Source: a virus
Taxonomy: Duplodnaviria; Heunggongvirae; Uroviricota; Caudoviricetes
IMG/VR virus record: IMGVR_UViG_2529292882_000014
Span: 1 to 42,566 of that record
Length of the DNA: 42,566 nt
Direction: 5' to 3' (one strand)
Made by a program: the position numbers and the translations under genes. Of this stretch, positions 1,191 through 36,071 are shown one piece after another (positions within the stretch are counted from its first letter, which is position 1; each line of letters begins with the position of its first letter). Under the pieces are notes generated by a model. The model was not told the DNA's origin and searched no databases. It worked only from the letters and a program-made list of their open reading frames with translations.

Positions 1191-1220
1191 CTTGCAATCC
1201 AGTGCAAGACTTTGTTTTTC
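1191..1220 (+). terminator. Putative rho-independent terminator downstream of int
   Basis: Stem CTTGCA / TGCAAG with 6-nt loop, followed by ACTTTGTTTTTC. Confidence 0.4.
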
Positions 1221-1535
1221 TAAGTTTTTCTCACATCACCGCACAATAATCAAACTAACCATAACACTCTTCGTTGATAATGACCTGACGGATATCATCA
1301 TGTACGTGACTGAGATTGGAGCAATAAGGCTCTTGTCGATTGACACACTATCTTCAACTAGTTCTGCTGCTGGAGATAGAAGCCCATAGTGCACTTACGA
1401 TAAAATACTGTGCGAGAACACAATATAATCATAGTAAAAATCAGATCAACTTCAAAACACGCTGCTTATCCATTGATCAACAGAATCATGCTGTTAAAAT
1501 TAATCCTATTACTACACTTAACTTAGGTATCTTTA

Positions 1536-2576
1536 ATGTCTATAAGAAATGGAAATCGTCTAGAATTCCTAGACTCTTTGCGTGGACTTGCAGCCCTGAT
1601 GGTTGCATGTGCACATTTCATAGAGCGAACACCATTGCATAACAGTTTTTTATTTAAGCATGTTAACTTTGGTCAGGTTGGTGTTGTTTGCTTCTTTGTG
1701 TTAAGTGGCATGGTAATACCTTACAGCCTAAAGGAAGGGAAAAGAGCGATATCCGGGTTCATTATATCAAGGTTTTTTAGACTATATCCCGCTTACTGGT
1801 TTTCAGTATTTCTGGCGGCCTTTACTTTTTTGTTTGTAACTCATAGACCACTTGATATAAGAACTCTGTTGTCTAATATTACCATGCTTCAATCTTTACT
1901 GAGATCTCCAGATATGTTTGGTGTTTATTGGACGCTAATAATTGAGTTGTTCTTCTATGCTTCCTGTGCGTTTCTTTTCAAAGTAAATTTATTAAAGAGT
2001 AAGGTTTCTTTATTTTTAATTTCTATAGGACTTATTGCAACCGCTCTTGCTTTCTCATACGTGAGATTCGTTCTTGATAAAAAAGTTCCTGTGGCAATAC
2101 CGCTAGCTATGTCATTAATGTTCTTTGGTAGCTTATGGCGTTCAGTGAGCATTGGGATTGCATCGAGATCAGAAAGAAATATGTGCATTGTATTTTTAAT
2201 AACATTCCTAGTGGCGATTGCTCCGATTTGCTTAATGTCCTACAATAAAGACTATGGGCATGGGGAAAATGCTTCCTCCTATATTGCTAGCTATCTTACA
2301 GGCATAGTATTGACGCTATTGCTCACTACACGGGTAAAATTGAATGTAGGATTATTGGTTTTCCTGGGATCGATAAGTTACTCTGTATACTTGATTCACC
2401 CATTCTTTTTAGAGATTGTATCTGTCAGTATAGACATGGACACAGATTTTAATTTTATTATTTTTGTTTTATACCTATTAGCTACGATCGCACTAGCAAC
2501 TATTTCTTATAAGGTAATTGAAAAACCATCTATAAATATAGGTCACAGGCTTAGGAAGATCGCACTAGCAAGCTGA
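1536..2576 (+). CDS. Acyltransferase family 3 (AT3) integral membrane protein, Oac-like O-antigen acetyltransferase candidate
   Basis: 346 aa, multiple hydrophobic segments; N-terminal motif RLEFLDSLRGLAALMVACAHF typical of AT3 acyltransferases; about 33% GC, adjacent to int and tailspike as in serotype-converting phages. Confidence 0.8.
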   Translation: MSIRNGNRLEFLDSLRGLAALMVACAHFIERTPLHNSFLFKHVNFGQVGVVCFFVLSGMVIPYSLKEGKRAISGFIISRFFRLYPAYWFSVFLAAFTFLFVTHRPLDIRTLLSNITMLQSLLRSPDMFGVYWTLIIELFFYASCAFLFKVNLLKSKVSLFLISIGLIATALAFSYVRFVLDKKVPVAIPLAMSLMFFGSLWRSVSIGIASRSERNMCIVFLITFLVAIAPICLMSYNKDYGHGENASSYIASYLTGIVLTLLLTTRVKLNVGLLVFLGSISYSVYLIHPFFLEIVSVSIDMDTDFNFIIFVLYLLATIALATISYKVIEKPSINIGHRLRKIALAS

Positions 2577-2739
2577 CATATGACATGAATCCCCAGCTTA
2601 GTTCTGGGGATATTTTCTGGTTATATAATACAATCCGAACTTACACCGAGAGCAAAAATCAATTATATAAGCATACTGTATCATTCATATTACTTTTACG
2701 CTAGGCTCAAGTATCCAATGATCAATAACAGACAAAAAA

Positions 2740-2759
2740 TACTGTATGTGTATACAGAG
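2740..2759. promoter_or_regulatory. LexA (SOS) box-like palindrome
   Basis: TACTGTATGTGTATACAGAG matches the CTGT-N8-ACAG SOS box pattern with an AT-rich spacer. Confidence 0.35.
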
Positions 2760-2905
2760 TCAGTGATATTTTTTCTGCTGCTCAATGAGCATTTCCGATC
2801 TTCCCACTTCTAAATTTATCCTCATGATGTTATTATCATTAAATTTATTTTAGGGGTAGTCACATGAGATATATTGCATTGTTTTTCTTTGCTCTTTCAC
2901 TGTAG

Positions 2906-3184
2906 ATGAATTGGACAATAAAAATGATAAAGTATAGAGCTGGTATAGATGGTTTAAGAGCAGTCGCTGTTGTGATGTTTCACGCTTTCCCAAGCGCATT
3001 TTCTGGAGAGTTCAATGGGTTTGATTTATTTTTCATAATATCTAGCCTTTTAATTTCAAGTATTATTTTTAAAAATTTAAATAGCGGTAAATTTTCTTTT
3101 TCCGATTTTTACTTAAGAAGGATTAAGCGGATTTTTACACTCTTACTCAGATCATATATAAGATTAGATTGCAAGTCTAGTTAG
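2906..3184 (+). pseudogene. Truncated N-terminal fragment of a second AT3 (OafA/OatA-like) acyltransferase
   Basis: 92-aa ORF with the AT3 N-terminal signature (GIDGLRAVAVVMFHAF ... FYLRRIKRIF) ending prematurely; the transmembrane core is absent. Confidence 0.5.
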
Positions 3185-3268
3185 TGGTTGGCTGAATAAT
3201 TTTCTCAATTCGTTGATTTGAAGCGTAAATATATTTTTAACCTTAAACCTTATTAAAAGGAAAATGCA

Positions 3269-3964
3269 ATGAAGTCAAAACAAACAAATAGAAAGTCTCA
3301 AGCAAATAAATATTTGGCAATGCTGTTTATTCTGATTGCAATAGTTATTATAGTATTGTCTGTTCGTTCAATTAGAAATTATTTATCTCAAAAAAAAGTT
3401 AACGACTTTCAGGCTGTGATGCTAGATTTTAAAAAAATGAATGCTAATCAAGCTGACGGCGACATTGTGGTTTATGGCGACTCGCTCATACAAGGAATGT
3501 CACCATATGGGTTAAACTTTAAATATGTTAATATGGGGGTCGGAGGATACTCTATACATCAGATCCTAACTCTATCAGAAAATTATGGGGCGTCTGGATA
3601 TAAAGCTGCGATAATTGAAGGTGGAGTTAACGATGCGATGGGTGCGAAAACCGAAGAGGAAATATTTGATGATTATGACAAACTGCTTAAGAGTGTATCA
3701 AAGGTTGATAATATTTATGCATTAAAAGTTTTGCCAATCATAAGCGGGGCAAGAAAAGACGTAGACCATGTCAATTCAAGAATAAGCATGATTAACTCTA
3801 TTATTGATAGAACATGTAGTCGCATAGTTAACTGCAATATAATAGAAGTTCCTGCAGATTTTTTATCTGATAAAAAATCTGAATTGTACTTTGATGATGG
3901 AGTGCATTTAAATAAAAATGGCTATGCCGTTTGGATGAGAGAGATTAATAAACATGTGAAGTAA
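3269..3964 (+). CDS. Membrane-anchored SGNH/GDSL hydrolase-fold protein
   Basis: 231 aa; one N-terminal TM helix (LAMLFILIAIVIIVLSV); SGNH blocks VVYGDSLIQG (I), NMGVGGYS (II), EGGVNDA (III), DDGVHLNKNGY (V); SD AAGGAAA upstream. Confidence 0.75.
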   Translation: MKSKQTNRKSQANKYLAMLFILIAIVIIVLSVRSIRNYLSQKKVNDFQAVMLDFKKMNANQADGDIVVYGDSLIQGMSPYGLNFKYVNMGVGGYSIHQILTLSENYGASGYKAAIIEGGVNDAMGAKTEEEIFDDYDKLLKSVSKVDNIYALKVLPIISGARKDVDHVNSRISMINSIIDRTCSRIVNCNIIEVPADFLSDKKSELYFDDGVHLNKNGYAVWMREINKHVK

Positions 3965-32559: not shown

Positions 32560-33210
32560 ATGAAAACTCAATTGATGGGAGAGCGCATTCGCGCTCGGAG
32601 AAAAGAACTCAAGATCAGGCAGGCCGCACTTGGAAAGATGGTCGGCGTGTCTAATGTTGCCATATCTCAGTGGGAACGCTCTGAGACAGAGCCAAATGGA
32701 GAGAATCTTCTCGCCCTGGCTAATGCGTTGAAGTGTTCCCCTGACTATCTGATGAAAGGAGAGGAAAGTCTTTCAAACATTGCCTATCACAGTAGGCATG
32801 ATCCAAGAGGGTCATACCCTCTGATTAGCTGGGTGAGCGCAGGATGCTGGATGGAAGCTGTAGAACCATATCATAAGCGTGCAATAGATAACTGGTACGA
32901 TACAACCGTAGACTGTTCAGAAGATTCGTTTTGGTTGGACGTGAAGGGAGACTCAATGACGGCTCCGGCCGGTCTCAGTATCCCTGAAGGAATGATAATA
33001 CTCGTCGATCCTGAAGTAGAGCCGCGTAACGGGAAACTGGTAGTTGCAAAGCTCGAAGGAGAAAACGAGGCAACTTTCAAGAAGTTAGTTATTGATGCAG
33101 GCAGGAAGTTTCTAAAACCACTTAACCCACAATATCCGATGATCGAGATCAACGGAAACTGCAAAATCATCGGCGTAGTTGTCGATGCAAAACTAGCAAA
33201 CCTTCCATAA
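32560..33210 (+). CDS. c2: C2 repressor (lambda CI-like, LexA-type autocleaving)
   Basis: 216 aa; N-terminal HTH (QAALGKMVGVSNVAISQWERSE), C-terminal peptidase S24 domain (GDSM ... K). Confidence 0.9.
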   Translation: MKTQLMGERIRARRKELKIRQAALGKMVGVSNVAISQWERSETEPNGENLLALANALKCSPDYLMKGEESLSNIAYHSRHDPRGSYPLISWVSAGCWMEAVEPYHKRAIDNWYDTTVDCSEDSFWLDVKGDSMTAPAGLSIPEGMIILVDPEVEPRNGKLVVAKLEGENEATFKKLVIDAGRKFLKPLNPQYPMIEINGNCKIIGVVVDAKLANLP

Positions 33211-33239
33211 GGGGGCATTCGCCCCTTTTTTTTATTTCC

Positions 33240-33345
33240 TTTAAAAATCAAAGCCAAACTTAAGTTACGAAAGAAAATTTAAGTTTTCTTCAAAAATACT
33301 CTTGACCATTAATTAAAGAGATCTTAAATTTAAGCCATCAGCAGG
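33240..33345. promoter_or_regulatory. OL operator / PL promoter region
   Basis: Operator-like sites with TTAAG/CTTAA half-sites; TTGACC, 17 nt, TAAATT reading rightward toward N. Confidence 0.5.
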
Positions 33346-33376
33346 ACGCTGGAAGCCAAACGGAACAGATTGGCAG

Positions 33377-33416
33377 GCTCTTTAACATTGATGGGATTGT
33401 CCCGCCGAAATGCGGG
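33377..33416 (+). promoter_or_regulatory. nutL (boxA plus boxB hairpin)
   Basis: GCTCTTTAACA followed by CCCGCCGAAATGCGGG about 40 nt downstream of the predicted PL start; identical motifs to nutR. Confidence 0.6.
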
Positions 33417-33731
33417 AACCAAAGAGTAGTTGGCTTTGGGGTGACGTGAAGTGCAGCTGCACGACGGCAACCGGAAGATAAGCACCCGGCGCGTCACCGC
33501 CAAAGTCAATTCCATAGGCGTTATGCAGCCGCCACCATATTCAAGAAAGCTGCACAAGAGGTAGGAGGATTTATGTGAATACTTACATTCAGTTGAGAGA
33601 TTAATTAAATAGAACTGATCGAGCAGAGTCCATAAAGGCTCATAAATGCTCTTCCATCCCCGTCTAATTGGCGGGGATGGAAACCACTTTGTAATAAAAA
33701 AAATTCCAAAGTTGTTTCATCGGAGGTCAAC

Positions 33732-34031
33732 ATGGCAGTAGTCATTACATATCTGGCTGACGATAACGCCAGAAATCGCCGCAGAGCACGCAGACAGGCT
33801 CAACGTGAACAGGCAATGCAAGAGCAGCGACTGGCGCGAAAGATTGCGCTAAAGCTCTCTGGTTGCGTCAGAGCAGATAAAGCAGCATCACTCGGAAGCC
33901 TTCGCTGCAAGAAGGCAGAAGAAATCGAGCGTAAACAGAACCGTATTTACTACCGCAAGCCACGCAGTGAAATGGGTGTGACTTGTGTTGGTCGCCAGAA
34001 AATGAAATTAGGCAGCAAACCACTTATTTGA
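33732..34031 (+). CDS. N: Antitermination protein N (lambda-like)
   Basis: 99 aa; N-terminal Arg-rich motif (NARNRRRARRQAQREQ); C-terminus RKQNRIYYRKPRSEMGVTCVGRQKMKLGSKPLI parallels lambda N. Confidence 0.8.
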   Translation: MAVVITYLADDNARNRRRARRQAQREQAMQEQRLARKIALKLSGCVRADKAASLGSLRCKKAEEIERKQNRIYYRKPRSEMGVTCVGRQKMKLGSKPLI

Positions 34032-34039
34032 GGTGAGAT

Positions 34040-34510
34040 ATGACAAAATCATGGAGCGTACCTTTTCCTGAATCAGAAACTGAACATGATGGAATGCCTG
34101 TTTTCTGGAGATTCCAAGCGACAGTTGAAGAAGATGGGATAAAAATATTCGCACTTCAATATATAGCTTTTCATCAGACAGAGCATTATGCATGGTTGGT
34201 TCCTGCGCATTGGATTGTTAATTTTAAACCAGCACCAAATCAGTGGTTACAGGAATGGAAACAAAAGAGAAATAGATATGCAATTAAGAAAGTAGCAAAA
34301 AATGCAGAAAGATCTTTTGCATTCCCAACGAAGAAACTTGCCATTGAGAGTTTATTGCGCCGGAAGAAATACCATTTAATGAGAATCAAACAAGATTTGG
34401 CTGTTGTATCAACTCTTGTTGATGGGATGAAGAATATTGATACATCAACACCAGATATTGAATATAACTTTGGACACAACCAAGAAACAGAAAATTGGGT
34501 ATTCTACTAG
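34040..34510 (+). CDS. Hypothetical protein, AT-rich moron immediately downstream of N
   Basis: 156-aa ORF, visibly AT-rich compared with flanks, followed by its own terminator; no family recognised. Confidence 0.6.
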   Translation: MTKSWSVPFPESETEHDGMPVFWRFQATVEEDGIKIFALQYIAFHQTEHYAWLVPAHWIVNFKPAPNQWLQEWKQKRNRYAIKKVAKNAERSFAFPTKKLAIESLLRRKKYHLMRIKQDLAVVSTLVDGMKNIDTSTPDIEYNFGHNQETENWVFY

Positions 34511-34535
34511 GCCGCATAGTCGGCCTTTATTTTTG
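34509..34535 (+). terminator. Rho-independent terminator after the N-proximal moron
   Basis: AGGCCG-CATAGT-CGGCCT hairpin followed by TTTATTTTT. Confidence 0.55.
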
Positions 34536-34653
34536 GCATAAACAACAGAATAAACACTGCACTGTGTATTCATTCCAACGAGTGAATACACGGAGCAATG
34601 TCGCTCGTAACTAAACAGGAGCCGACTTGTTCTGATTATTGGAAATCTTCTTT

Positions 34654-34680
34654 GCCCTCCAGTGTGAGGGCGATTTTTTA
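34654..34680 (+). terminator. Rho-independent terminator-like hairpin directly upstream of the next gene
   Basis: GCCCTC-CAGTGTG-AGGGCG followed by ATTTTTTA, ending about 20 nt before the ATG at 34700. Confidence 0.45.
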
Positions 34681-34699
34681 TCTGTGAGGATATGAACAG

Positions 34700-35068
34700 A
34701 TGTCAAACATCAAAAAATACATCATTGATTACGACTGGAAAGCATCAATAGAAATTGAAATCGACCATGACGTAATGACAGAGGAAAAACTTCACCAGAT
34801 TAATAATTTCTGGTCAGACTCTGAATACCGACTCAATAAACACGGCTCTGTATTAAATGCTGTATTAATCATGCTGGCGCAACATGCTCTGCTTATAGCA
34901 ATTTCAAGCGACTTAAATGCATATGGTGTTGTGTGTGAGTTCGACTGGAATGATGGAAATGGTCAGGAAGGATGGCCTCCAATGGATGGTAGCGAAGGAA
35001 TAAGAATTACCGATATCGACACATCAGGAATATTTGATTCAGATGATATGACTATCAAAGTCGCCTGA
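34700..35068 (+). CDS. Hypothetical acidic protein
   Basis: 122-aa ORF with GAGGA SD; Asp/Glu-rich; no family recognised. Confidence 0.55.
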   Translation: MSNIKKYIIDYDWKASIEIEIDHDVMTEEKLHQINNFWSDSEYRLNKHGSVLNAVLIMLAQHALLIAISSDLNAYGVVCEFDWNDGNGQEGWPPMDGSEGIRITDIDTSGIFDSDDMTIKVA

Positions 35069-35102: not shown

Positions 35103-36071
35103 ATGAGTGAAGTAACAGATTTAGTTGTTATTGAAAAAGCAAATGCAATGACTGTATTTCAGTCTGCCGACCAGATTGAAGAAATCCTTCAAAAGGTTGA
35201 ACGTGAAGTTATGTCCTTTGTGCCTGATATCACAACGGCAAAGGGCAGAAAGGAGATCGCTTCTCTGGCGTATAAAGTTGCGCAGACGAAAACATATCTC
35301 GATGGTCTTGGCAAAGACCTTGTTGCTGAACTGAAGGAAATTCCAAAGCTAATTGATGCTAACCGCAAGACAGTGCGTGATCGCCTTGATGAGCTGAAAG
35401 CCAAGGCGCGCCAGCCTCTTACTGATTATGAGGAAGAACAGGCGCGGATTAAAGCCGAAGAAGAAGCTAAGGCAGCAGCTGAAGCTCTCGCAAAGCAAAT
35501 TGAGTCTGACCATGAAATAGCTATTTTGATGGATCGCGAATTTGACCGCCAAAGAGAAGAGGCAAGACTCAAAGCGGAGCAGGAAAAGCGAGAGCATGAA
35601 GAACGATTAAAAAGAGAAGCTGAAGAGAAAGCCAGAGCAGAAGCCGAAGCAAAGGCAAAAGCCGAAATTGAAGCAGCAGCAAGGCGAGAAGCAGAAGCTA
35701 AGGCCGCAGCGGAACGTGCAGAGCGTGAACGCATTGAAGCCGAGCAACGAGCACAGCGCGAAGCAAAAGAGGCAGCAGAACGAGCTGAAAGAGAAAAGCA
35801 GGCAGCAATTGAAGCAGAACGCAGAAAAGCACAGGAGGAGGCTGAACGAATCCGGCGCGAGGCTGAAGCAAAAGAGCAAGCCAGAATAGCAGAAGAAAAA
35901 AGAATCAAGGACGAAGAAGAGCGTAGAGCAAAGGATAAAGCTCACCGGAAAGAAGTAAATAACAAAATACTTGCTGACCTTATCAAGGTTGGCGCATCAG
36001 AAGATGTTGCTAAAAATATCATAACAGCCATCGTAAAAGGCGAAGTATTCGCAACAAAAATAACCTACTAA
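35103..36071 (+). CDS. Coiled-coil protein with highly repetitive Glu/Ala/Lys/Arg-rich central region
   Basis: 322 aa; GGAGGA SD; about 170 aa of EAKA/RAER-type repeats; the repetitive DNA generates spurious antisense ORFs. Confidence 0.65.
   Translation: MSEVTDLVVIEKANAMTVFQSADQIEEILQKVEREVMSFVPDITTAKGRKEIASLAYKVAQTKTYLDGLGKDLVAELKEIPKLIDANRKTVRDRLDELKAKARQPLTDYEEEQARIKAEEEAKAAAEALAKQIESDHEIAILMDREFDRQREEARLKAEQEKREHEERLKREAEEKARAEAEAKAKAEIEAAARREAEAKAAAERAERERIEAEQRAQREAKEAAERAEREKQAAIEAERRKAQEEAERIRREAEAKEQARIAEEKRIKDEEERRAKDKAHRKEVNNKILADLIKVGASEDVAKNIITAIVKGEVFATKITY

What the first reader, a model, noticed from the sequence alone, without database searches (positions are those of the whole stretch)
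34040..34535. AT-rich, self-terminated moron immediately downstream of N
The 156-aa ORF starts 9 bp after N, is visibly more AT-rich than its flanks and is followed by a strong intrinsic terminator. The position directly after the N antiterminator is where P22 carries sieB, and repressor-proximal loci are recurrent sites for prophage-encoded exclusion or defence genes. I recognise no family for the protein.
Basis: inference. Interest (0 to 1): 0.6.

Follow-up and report, generated by a model that had tools for sequence, protein, structure and literature searches.

The report
Uncharacterised early phage gene after N
The AT-rich 156-codon gene right after the N antiterminator is real and conserved (HK97 gp45 / 933W L0079), but it looks like an early lytic-cycle gene of unknown function that borrows N's promoter, ribosome site and terminators, not a self-contained prophage defence gene.

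Summary
The ORF (34040-34510, 156 aa) is confirmed. It starts 8 nt after N, has GC 0.36 against 0.46 for the window, and is followed by a terminator-like hairpin. It is a real gene under purifying selection (pN/pS about 0.08).

It is already catalogued and unstudied: phrog_1636, identical to an unannotated H-19B ORF, 99% identical to 933W L0079 and HK97 gp45, and present in 598 of 5426 complete E. coli genomes.

The 'self-terminated moron' reading fails.
- The Shine-Dalgarno site and ATG are shared with phage 21.
- The whole downstream spacer is the lambda ral-ea10 spacer. It holds both terminators and the PreS sRNA ending at tL2a, and occurs in phages that lack this ORF.
- No promoter-like site lies between pL and the ORF.

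The ORF is therefore swappable cargo in the N-to-tL2a slot. It should be co-transcribed with N as an immediate-early gene.

Unlike sieB, it is co-directional with N, has no promoter of its own and has no membrane segment. A 63% identical homologue is the first gene behind a strong promoter in a virulent T1-like phage.

The protein is soluble, with a basic centre. The AlphaFold model has pLDDT 96 and no PDB neighbour. Function is unknown. My best guess is an early lytic factor that targets the host or nucleic acid, possibly counter-defence.

The parts
33302..33330 (+). pL promoter-like site (TTGACC-17-TAAATT); predicted transcript start near 33337
   Evidence: Consensus scan. About 90% identical to the annotated OL/pL region of phage 21.
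33377..33416 (+). nutL: boxA (GCTCTTTA, 33377-33384) and a boxB-like hairpin (33401-33416, CCCGC-CGAAAT-GCGGG)
   Evidence: Positions transferred from the phage 21 annotation by alignment. The boxB sequence differs from phage 21, as does the N-terminal arginine-rich motif of N.
33732..34031 (+). N antiterminator, 99 aa, with a phage-21-type C-terminal two thirds
   Evidence: phrog_271 E 1.6e-36; 70% identity to phage 21 N.
34030..34042 (+). Shine-Dalgarno GAGGTGA overlapping the N stop codon, plus the ATG of the ORF. Both are backbone sequence shared with phage 21, where the same ATG opens a 28-aa orf28-like ORF upstream of ral.
34040..34510 (+). The 156-aa ORF: phrog_1636 = HK97 gp45 = 933W L0079 = unannotated H-19B ORF. 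Soluble, pI 9.05, basic centre, acidic ends.
34509..34536 (+). Terminator-like hairpin 1 (AGGCCG-CATAGT-CGGCCT plus TTTATTTTT). Backbone element that lies in a 39-nt stretch deleted in 933W, HK97 and H-19B.
34558..34597 (+). Strong conserved hairpin (dG -22.8 kcal/mol, z -7.6), identical in lambda. It lies at about the inferred 5' end of the PreS sRNA.
   Evidence: Its position relative to PreS is inferred from the ~88-nt size reported.
34593..34680 (+). Homologue of the lambda Hfq-dependent sRNA PreS (LPR1), ending at terminator tL2a (hairpin 34652-34673 plus T-tract). Identical to lambda over this stretch; the 5' end is approximate.
   Evidence: Alignment with the lambda ral-ea10 spacer; bioRxiv 10.1101/2024.10.31.621285; terminator scan.
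34700..35068 (+). Next backbone gene: Ea10-like DUF2528 protein, 122 aa
   Evidence: PF10800 E 1.8e-47. Same gene follows the spacer in lambda, 933W and phage 21.

Best explanation
The ORF is a conserved but uncharacterised phage protein (phrog_1636; HK97 gp45; 933W L0079). It sits as exchangeable cargo in the fixed expression slot between N and the tL2a/PreS terminator cluster of the lambdoid early-left (pL) operon.

It has no expression signals of its own. It is read from pL, through nutL and N. Translation starts at a backbone Shine-Dalgarno/ATG that overlaps the N stop codon. Transcription ends, when N is not acting, at the backbone terminators just downstream. It should therefore be made together with N in the first minutes after infection or induction, as an N-independent immediate-early gene. 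It should be silent in the repressed prophage.

The product is a soluble 18.6-kDa protein with no cysteines. Its centre is strongly basic and conserved (residues 61-131, 18 Lys/Arg) and its ends are acidic. It has no catalytic-looking motif, and its confidently predicted fold has no solved structural neighbour.

My best guess at function (inferred, not shown): it acts by binding, not catalysis, to nucleic acid or to a broadly conserved host factor, for the benefit of lytic development. A counter-defence or DNA-protection role is the leading candidate, because it takes the place of ral and travels with anti-restriction and DNA-modification genes.
For: SHOWN
- Identity and family: phrog_1636 full length, E 5e-112. 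100% identical to H-19B and 98.7-99.4% to 933W, HK97 and BP-4795.
- Real gene: pN/pS about 0.08, 79 of 80 copies intact.
- No terminator-like site between pL and 34509, and no promoter-like site on the + strand between 33330 and the ORF, even at 8 of 12 matches.
- The pL, boxA and nutL layout matches annotated phage 21.
- The Shine-Dalgarno site and ATG are shared with phage 21, where they open orf28/ral.
- The downstream spacer is identical to the lambda ral-ea10 spacer from the T-tract of hairpin 1 onward. CUS-3 and mEp235, which lack the ORF, carry the whole spacer, hairpin 1 included.
- That spacer encodes PreS ending at tL2a, which is expressed in the lytic cycle and not in the lysogen in lambda.
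- The same ORF follows at least five different N alleles and precedes at least six different downstream genes.
- Unrelated cargo occupies the slot in phage 21, lambda, CUS-3, mEp235 and VT2-Sakai.
- A 63% identical homologue is the first gene behind TTGACG-17-TATAGT in the T1-like phage Bas81, which has no integrase or repressor among its 97 annotated features.
- More distant relatives are in other phages: Erwinia phiEa2809, Achromobacter phiAxp-3, Delftia RG-2014 and Cellulophaga phi17:2. I recall some of these as virulent, for example N4-like; I did not check that here.
- Homologues lie next to DNA methyltransferases in a Pantoea and a Pseudomonas phage.
- The protein is soluble and basic: pI 9.05, centre pI 10.7, max hydropathy 0.56.

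INFERRED
- Immediate-early timing, silence in the lysogen, action by binding, and a counter-defence or DNA-related role.
Against: No expression data exist for this gene.
- The promoter scan only tests the sigma-70 consensus, so a weak or activator-dependent promoter inside N cannot be excluded.
- The slot also hosts exclusion genes (nun on the same strand as N; sieB on the opposite strand). Position alone therefore does not separate offence from defence.
- ral co-occurs with this ORF in phage phi367, so it is not simply a ral substitute.
- In Brenneria and Pectobacterium prophages the homologue lies next to xis-int at the far end of the operon. Immediate-early timing is therefore not a family-wide property.
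- VT2-Sakai carries an unrelated 83-aa gene (H0090) in the slot instead of this ORF, which shows the ORF is dispensable.
- No homology, structural neighbour or domain fusion points to any target.
Confidence: 0.6

Rival explanations
1. One reading: a prophage-encoded exclusion or defence gene, analogous to sieB or nun, expressed in the lysogen to block superinfecting phages.
For: It occupies the same N-proximal slot that holds sieB in lambda and P22 and nun in mEp235. It is AT-rich and patchily distributed like many morons. It is very common in E. coli prophages, 598 of 5426 genomes.
Against: - No promoter-like site of its own; the Shine-Dalgarno/ATG and the terminators are backbone.
- It is co-directional with N, whereas sieB is antiparallel with its own promoter.
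- No membrane segment, unlike SieB.
- No PADLOC hit for it or for 67 relatives.
- A close homologue in T1-like phage Bas81, which has no annotated integrase or repressor, and distant relatives in many other phages, where a lysogen-protection role makes no sense.
- In lambda this stretch is transcribed only lytically.
Confidence: 0.15
2. An early regulator of phage development or host physiology, in the manner of cIII, kil or the exo-xis genes. For example, a DNA- or RNA-binding protein that tunes replication, recombination or the lysis-lysogeny choice, rather than acting in conflict with defence systems.
For: - A basic conserved centre suited to nucleic-acid binding.
- It is embedded among recombination and replication genes: Rad52-like and SSB in the window, RecE in a Vibrio phage, ParB-like and RusA in Bas81, and xis-int in Pectobacterium and Brenneria prophages.
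- Its neighbour PreS boosts phage replication.
Against: No recognisable DNA-binding fold. The patchy presence/absence among otherwise near-identical phages, and the loss in VT2-Sakai, fit an accessory conflict gene better than a core regulator. Nothing tested here separates this from the best explanation, which it partly overlaps.
Confidence: 0.2
3. A decaying or non-functional ORF carried along between N and the terminators.
For: Function unknown. Truncated forms exist (phrog_18686, phrog_37429; partial proteins), and VT2-Sakai has a different gene in the slot.
Against: - pN/pS about 0.08 with 79 of 80 copies intact.
- 40 invariant columns down to 55% identity.
- A superfamily of 88 cluster representatives across many phage groups.
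- A very confident structure prediction driven by co-variation in that family.
Confidence: 0.02

Closest known systems
HK97 gp45 / 933W L0079 (ST933Wp19) / unannotated ORF of H-19B / Stx2 phage 86 orf57 (PHROG family phrog_1636)
   Same: The same protein: 98.7-100% identity over all 156 residues, in the same place in the pL operon downstream of N.
   Different: In those phages N is of the H-19B type. It is separated from the ORF by a 58-nt fossil of the phage-21-type N 3' end that is still intact in this window. They also lack the 39 nt that carry terminator hairpin 1. None of them has an assigned function.
Lambda / phage 21 ral (with orf28), the restriction-alleviation cargo of the same slot
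   Same: Exactly the same flanks: N 3' end, Shine-Dalgarno and ATG upstream; T-tract, PreS and tL2a spacer and ea10 downstream. Same strand and the same dependence on pL.
   Different: No sequence or profile similarity (hhalign probability 0.1%). Ral is 66 aa. ral and this ORF co-occur in phage phi367, so they are not simple alternatives.
SieB superinfection exclusion protein of P22 and lambda
   Same: Lies directly next to N, in the same variable region.
   Different: sieB is on the opposite strand with its own mapped promoter and RNA start (P22) and has a hydrophobic membrane segment (max Kyte-Doolittle 3.0 in P22, 1.7 in lambda). This ORF is co-directional with N, has no promoter, is soluble (0.56) and is unrelated.
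Morons as defined for HK97/HK022 (promoter + gene + terminator units inserted between backbone genes)
   Same: Deviant base composition, and presence/absence between otherwise near-identical genomes.
   Different: No promoter and no private terminator. All expression signals are those of the backbone slot.
Lambda PreS (LPR1) sRNA / tL2a terminator
   Same: The stretch after the ORF's first hairpin, about 34593-34680, is identical to the lambda PreS/tL2a locus.
   Different: This is a neighbour of the ORF, not the ORF itself.

Membership tests
phrog_1636 (HK97 gp45 / 933W L0079 family) | Full-length match to the family profile and near-identity to named members | tested here: met
   E 5.4e-112 over residues 1-156 of 156. 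100% identical to H-19B, 99.4% to 933W and 98.7% to HK97 gp45.
Moron (autonomous inserted transcription unit) | Inserted between genes that are adjacent, or differently filled, in related phages | tested here: met
   Phage 21, lambda, CUS-3, mEp235 and VT2-Sakai have the same flanks with other cargo.
Moron (autonomous inserted transcription unit) | Base composition different from the surrounding genome | tested here: met
   GC 0.361 against 0.461; 5th percentile.
Moron (autonomous inserted transcription unit) | Own promoter upstream of the gene | tested here: not met
   No sigma-70-like site at 9 of 12 matches or 8 of 12 between 33700 and 34060. Only 8 nt separate it from N, and the Shine-Dalgarno/ATG are shared with phage 21. 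Caveat: this is a consensus scan only.
Moron (autonomous inserted transcription unit) | Own terminator downstream of the gene | tested here: not met
   Both terminator-like hairpins belong to a spacer also present in phages without the ORF. Hairpin 1 is absent after the same ORF in 933W, HK97 and H-19B.
Moron (autonomous inserted transcription unit) | Expressed from the repressed prophage | not testable with these tools
   Needs RNA or protein data from a lysogen. The only indirect evidence is that the adjacent lambda PreS is lytic-only.
SieB-type superinfection exclusion | Sequence or profile similarity to SieB | tested here: not met
   hhalign of the family profile against P22 SieB: probability 0.2%.
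SieB-type superinfection exclusion | Transcribed against the pL operon from its own promoter | tested here: not met
   P22 and lambda sieB are on the strand opposite to N, with a promoter mapped in P22. This ORF is on the N strand without a promoter.
SieB-type superinfection exclusion | Hydrophobic membrane segment | tested here: not met
   Max 19-residue Kyte-Doolittle score 0.56 here, against 3.0 (P22) and 1.7 (lambda).
Known anti-phage defence systems (PADLOC-DB v2) | Match to any defence-protein model | tested here: not met
   Only noise (Cas1_II, E 0.0097) for the ORF. No family is shared among 68 relatives.
Ral restriction alleviation | Sequence or profile similarity to Ral | tested here: not met
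   hhalign probability 0.1%.
Ral restriction alleviation | Alleviates type I restriction | not testable with these tools
   Needs a plating assay on EcoKI/EcoBI hosts.
Immediate-early pL transcription unit (N-type) | Lies between pL/nutL and the first intrinsic terminator, on the same strand | tested here: met
   pL 33302-33330 and nutL 33377-33416 by alignment with phage 21. No + strand terminator-like site before 34509.

The most novel reading that the evidence does not exclude
Probability: 0.3. Interest if true: 0.65.

Novelty: new member of a known kind. Interest (0 to 1): 0.4.

Why it matters
If the expression model holds, this is one of only two proteins, with N, made from the very first leftward transcript of many Shiga-toxin phages (933W, H-19B, BP-4795, many Stx1a phages), of HK97, and of about 11% of complete E. 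coli genomes. Nothing is known about what it does.

Genes in this slot that have been studied (ral, sieB, nun) all act in phage-host or phage-phage conflict. The family reaches into a T1-like phage with no lysogeny genes and into phages of other phyla, and it has a confidently predicted fold with no solved relative. It is a cheap and well-defined target: delete it in HK97 or 933W and test it against defence-system panels.

The analysis also corrects the anatomy. The terminator belongs to the PreS/tL2a backbone, and the slot is a cassette site with fixed translation-start and termination signals. That helps in reading other lambdoid prophages.

Tried and rejected
Searches that found nothing useful
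- Pfam, NCBIfam and PADLOC on the ORF and on 68 relatives: no real hits.
- PDB sequence and profile searches: only noise, E >= 0.58.
- First AlphaFold run on the shallow close-family alignment: pLDDT 65, not usable. It was replaced by the run on the 68-sequence superfamily alignment.
- The AFDB50 library was not available.
- The viral library gave only 'uncharacterized' relatives.
- Rfam on 33200-34800: nothing (S15 leader, E 0.45). PreS was found only through the literature.
- Literature searches by identifier (L0079, gp45, RefSeq and PHROG ids) and by topic: nothing on this protein.

Ideas tested and dropped
- Domain fusions among long hits (P0056, P0081): spurious repeat proteins.
- Homology to the other cargo of the slot (Ral, CUS-3 140-aa protein, VT2-Sakai H0090, SieB): none. 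In particular, H0090 is not a truncated copy of this ORF.
- N cofactor: rejected. The ORF follows five unrelated N alleles, keeps only a non-coding fossil of the 21-type N end in 933W, and occurs at least in T1-like Bas81, where no N-type antiterminator is annotated.

Technical dead ends
- Metagenomic contigs for distant relatives were too short to give context.
- The IMG/VR scan with the superfamily alignment failed because no conserved peptide was available.

Full report
OBSERVATION

The window carries a lambdoid immunity and early-left region on the + strand. In order it holds cI (32560-33210) with its terminator, a pL-like promoter (33302-33330), nutL, N (33732-34031, 99 aa), and then the ORF in question (34040-34510, 156 aa).

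The pL, operator and boxA stretch is about 90% identical to the annotated phage 21 region. That places the transcript start near 33337, boxA at 33377-33384 and a boxB-like hairpin at 33401-33416. N is 70% identical to phage 21 N: different in the arginine-rich N-terminus, nearly identical over its C-terminal two thirds. Eight nucleotides separate the N stop from the ORF's ATG, and a GAGGTGA Shine-Dalgarno overlaps the N stop codon.

The ORF has GC 0.361 (GC3 0.287), against 0.461 for the window and 0.497 for N. That is the 5th percentile of equal-sized windows. Only one other patch of the window is as AT-rich.

A terminator-like hairpin lies at 34509-34526 followed by TTTATTTTT. It is modest: dG -9.6 kcal/mol, z -1.55. 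A stronger one lies at 34652-34673 with a T6 run (dG -12.9, z -3.5).

IS IT A GENE?

Yes.
- Among 80 near-identical copies fetched from IMG/VR, 79 are intact. Variant codons are 24 synonymous to 8 nonsynonymous, pN/pS about 0.08.
- Relatives down to 55% identity from Pectobacterium, Brenneria, Cronobacter, Rosenbergiella and others keep 40 invariant columns.
- A profile search of 1.84 billion cluster representatives finds 88 proteins at E <= 1e-3. Most are 130-160 aa and share a core: an N-terminal hairpin ending in H-E-T, then K-x-I-x-K...S-R-F-A-F-x-T...A...R-K..Q..H-L-x-R.

WHAT IS IT CALLED?

It is phrog_1636, 'unknown function', matched end to end at E 5e-112.
- 100% identical to an unannotated ORF of H-19B.
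- 99.4% identical to 933W L0079/ST933Wp19, BP-4795, Stx2 phage 86 orf57 and many Stx1a/Stx2a phages.
- 98.7% identical to HK97 gp45.
- Present in 598 of 5426 complete E. coli genomes, up to four copies per genome.

Every source calls it hypothetical. It has no Pfam, NCBIfam or PADLOC model. I found no paper about it.

ANATOMY OF THE SLOT

This is the main result. Three alignments show that the ORF owns none of the signals around it.

1. Upstream. In 933W, HK97 and H-19B the N gene is of a different type (127 aa). It is followed by 58 nt that are identical to the last codons of the 21-type N that is intact in this window. The left junction of the cassette therefore lies inside N. In phage 21 the identity with the window runs through the Shine-Dalgarno site and the ATG itself. 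There that ATG opens a 28-aa orf28-like ORF followed by ral.

2. Downstream. Everything from the T-tract of the first hairpin to the next gene is the lambda ral-ea10 intergenic region, essentially base for base. The same spacer, first hairpin included, follows other cargo in CUS-3 (N-ral-140 aa) and mEp235 (N-nun-Nmad5). In lambda the stem of the first hairpin is not conserved. In phage 21 the spacer follows ral.
   - That spacer is known. It encodes the Hfq-dependent sRNA PreS (LPR1, about 88 and 68 nt), whose 3' end is terminator tL2a. PreS is made in the lytic cycle and not in the lysogen (bioRxiv 10.1101/2024.10.31.621285).
   - The window's second terminator is therefore tL2a, and about 34593-34680 is a PreS copy.

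3. It sits in a 39-nt stretch that is simply missing after the same ORF in 933W, HK97 and H-19B and in most IMG/VR copies. Only 11 of 80 have it. Ten of those then lack the hairpin and tL2a and run into a different gene 46 nt later.

Across the 80 copies the ORF follows at least five N alleles: 21-like, lambda-like, P22-like, H-19B-like and one further type. Sometimes it follows other cargo instead, including Nmad5, DUF7446 and a 149-aa hydrophobic protein. It precedes at least six different downstream genes. Other phages fill the same slot with unrelated genes.

The picture is a cassette site with a fixed promoter, translation start and terminators. It is not an autonomous promoter-gene-terminator moron.

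EXPRESSION (INFERRED)

There is no terminator-like site on the + strand between pL and 34509. There is no promoter-like site between 33330 and the ORF, even at 8 of 12 matches. The ORF should therefore be on the same N-independent immediate-early RNA as N, about 1.2 kb from pL to hairpin 1 or 1.35 kb to tL2a. It is probably translationally coupled to N, and silent while cI holds pL.

COMPARISON WITH sieB

But sieB is on the opposite strand, with its own mapped promoter and RNA start in P22, which is what lets a prophage express it. SieB also has a hydrophobic membrane segment. This ORF is co-directional with N, has no promoter, is hydrophilic (max Kyte-Doolittle 0.56, GRAVY -0.58, no Cys) and is unrelated to SieB.

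RELATIVES ELSEWHERE

- A 63-64% identical homologue is the first gene of a short operon behind a 10-of-12 promoter (TTGACG-17-TATAGT) in the T1-like phage Bas81. That phage has no integrase or repressor among its 97 annotated features. Salmonella phage NX263 carries the gene at the head of a similar short operon.
- Structure-based relatives, all 'uncharacterized', occur in Erwinia phiEa2809, Achromobacter phiAxp-3, Delftia RG-2014, Cellulophaga phi17:2, and Rhizobium, Sinorhizobium and Tenacibaculum phages. I recall some of these as virulent; I did not check that here.
- In a Pantoea and a Pseudomonas phage the homologue lies near DNA methyltransferases. In a Vibrio phage it lies next to RecE.
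- In Brenneria and Pectobacterium prophages it lies just upstream of xis-int.

A gene kept by a phage with no lysogeny genes behind an early promoter is hard to reconcile with a lysogen-protection role.

THE PROTEIN

With the 68-sequence superfamily alignment, AlphaFold gives pLDDT 95.8 and pTM 0.82. The model has:
- a long beta-hairpin (19-30, 33-46) and a third strand (50-55);
- two short helices and a short strand (83-86);
- a 33-residue helix (98-130) and an ordered C-terminal tail.

The protein has pI 9.05. Residues 61-131 hold 18 Lys/Arg (pI 10.7) between acidic ends. The best-conserved positions include K84, K87, R91, R107/K108 and R115. There is no catalytic-looking motif and there are no informative domain fusions. 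This suggests a binding protein, for nucleic acid or for an acidic partner, but it proves nothing.

VERDICT

The most likely reading (about 0.6) is an immediate-early, lytic-cycle accessory protein that uses the N-tL2a cassette slot. Within that reading, counter-defence or DNA-directed action is my leading but unproven guess. Prophage defence gets about 0.15, a developmental or host-physiology regulator about 0.2, and junk about 0.02.

The sequence itself is already in the databases as HK97 gp45 / 933W L0079. What is open is its function. Given its position, prevalence and apparently new fold, that is a modestly attractive and very testable question.

Noticed in passing
window 34593-34680 (with the hairpin at 34558-34597): The spacer after the ORF contains an exact copy of the lambda PreS (LPR1) Hfq-dependent sRNA ending at terminator tL2a. 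A very stable conserved hairpin (dG -22.8 kcal/mol, z -7.6) sits about where the 88-nt form should begin, so it may be the processing site. Rfam has no model for PreS.
   Followed up: partly
window 33510-33715: Compared with phage 21, the window has about 210 extra nucleotides between nutL and N. They include a boxA-like TGCTCTT followed by a 9-bp-stem hairpin (CCATCCCCG...CGGGGATGG, about 33653-33688). This may be a second nut-like or other RNA element in the N leader.
   Followed up: no
window 33732-34031; loci L022-L101: N genes upstream of this ORF are chimeras. Different arginine-rich N-termini (lambda-like MDAQTRRRERR, P22-like, 21-like, and the window's MAVVITYLADDNARNRRR) are joined to the same phage-21-type C-terminal end. 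H-19B-type N genes keep a 58-nt non-coding fossil of that end.
   Followed up: partly
window 1200-3800: This is the only other strongly AT-rich patch (GC down to 0.28). It lies between the integrase (1-1158) and a 745-aa tailspike-like gene on the minus strand. It encodes a 346-aa multi-pass membrane protein that looks like an acyltransferase-3 (O-antigen acetylase type), a 92-aa fragment of another, and a 231-aa protein. By eye these look like serotype-conversion cargo; I did not run them against any family library.
   Followed up: no
loci L024, L052, L058 (upstream of the ORF); L018 (mEp235): In some prophages an Nmad5 ('nucleotide modification associated domain 5', PF18757, E 2e-72) gene sits between N and this ORF. 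Other copies are preceded by a DUF7446 protein, a 62-aa Cys-rich protein or a 149-aa hydrophobic protein. The N-proximal slot can therefore stack several cargo genes.
   Followed up: partly
window 35103-36071: A 322-aa ORF with a long Glu/Lys/Ala/Arg-rich central region (AT skew up to 0.77). It matches phrog_1376 and phrog_21365, both of unknown function, has no Pfam hit, and lies between the Ea10-like gene and the Rad52-like/SSB genes.
   Followed up: no
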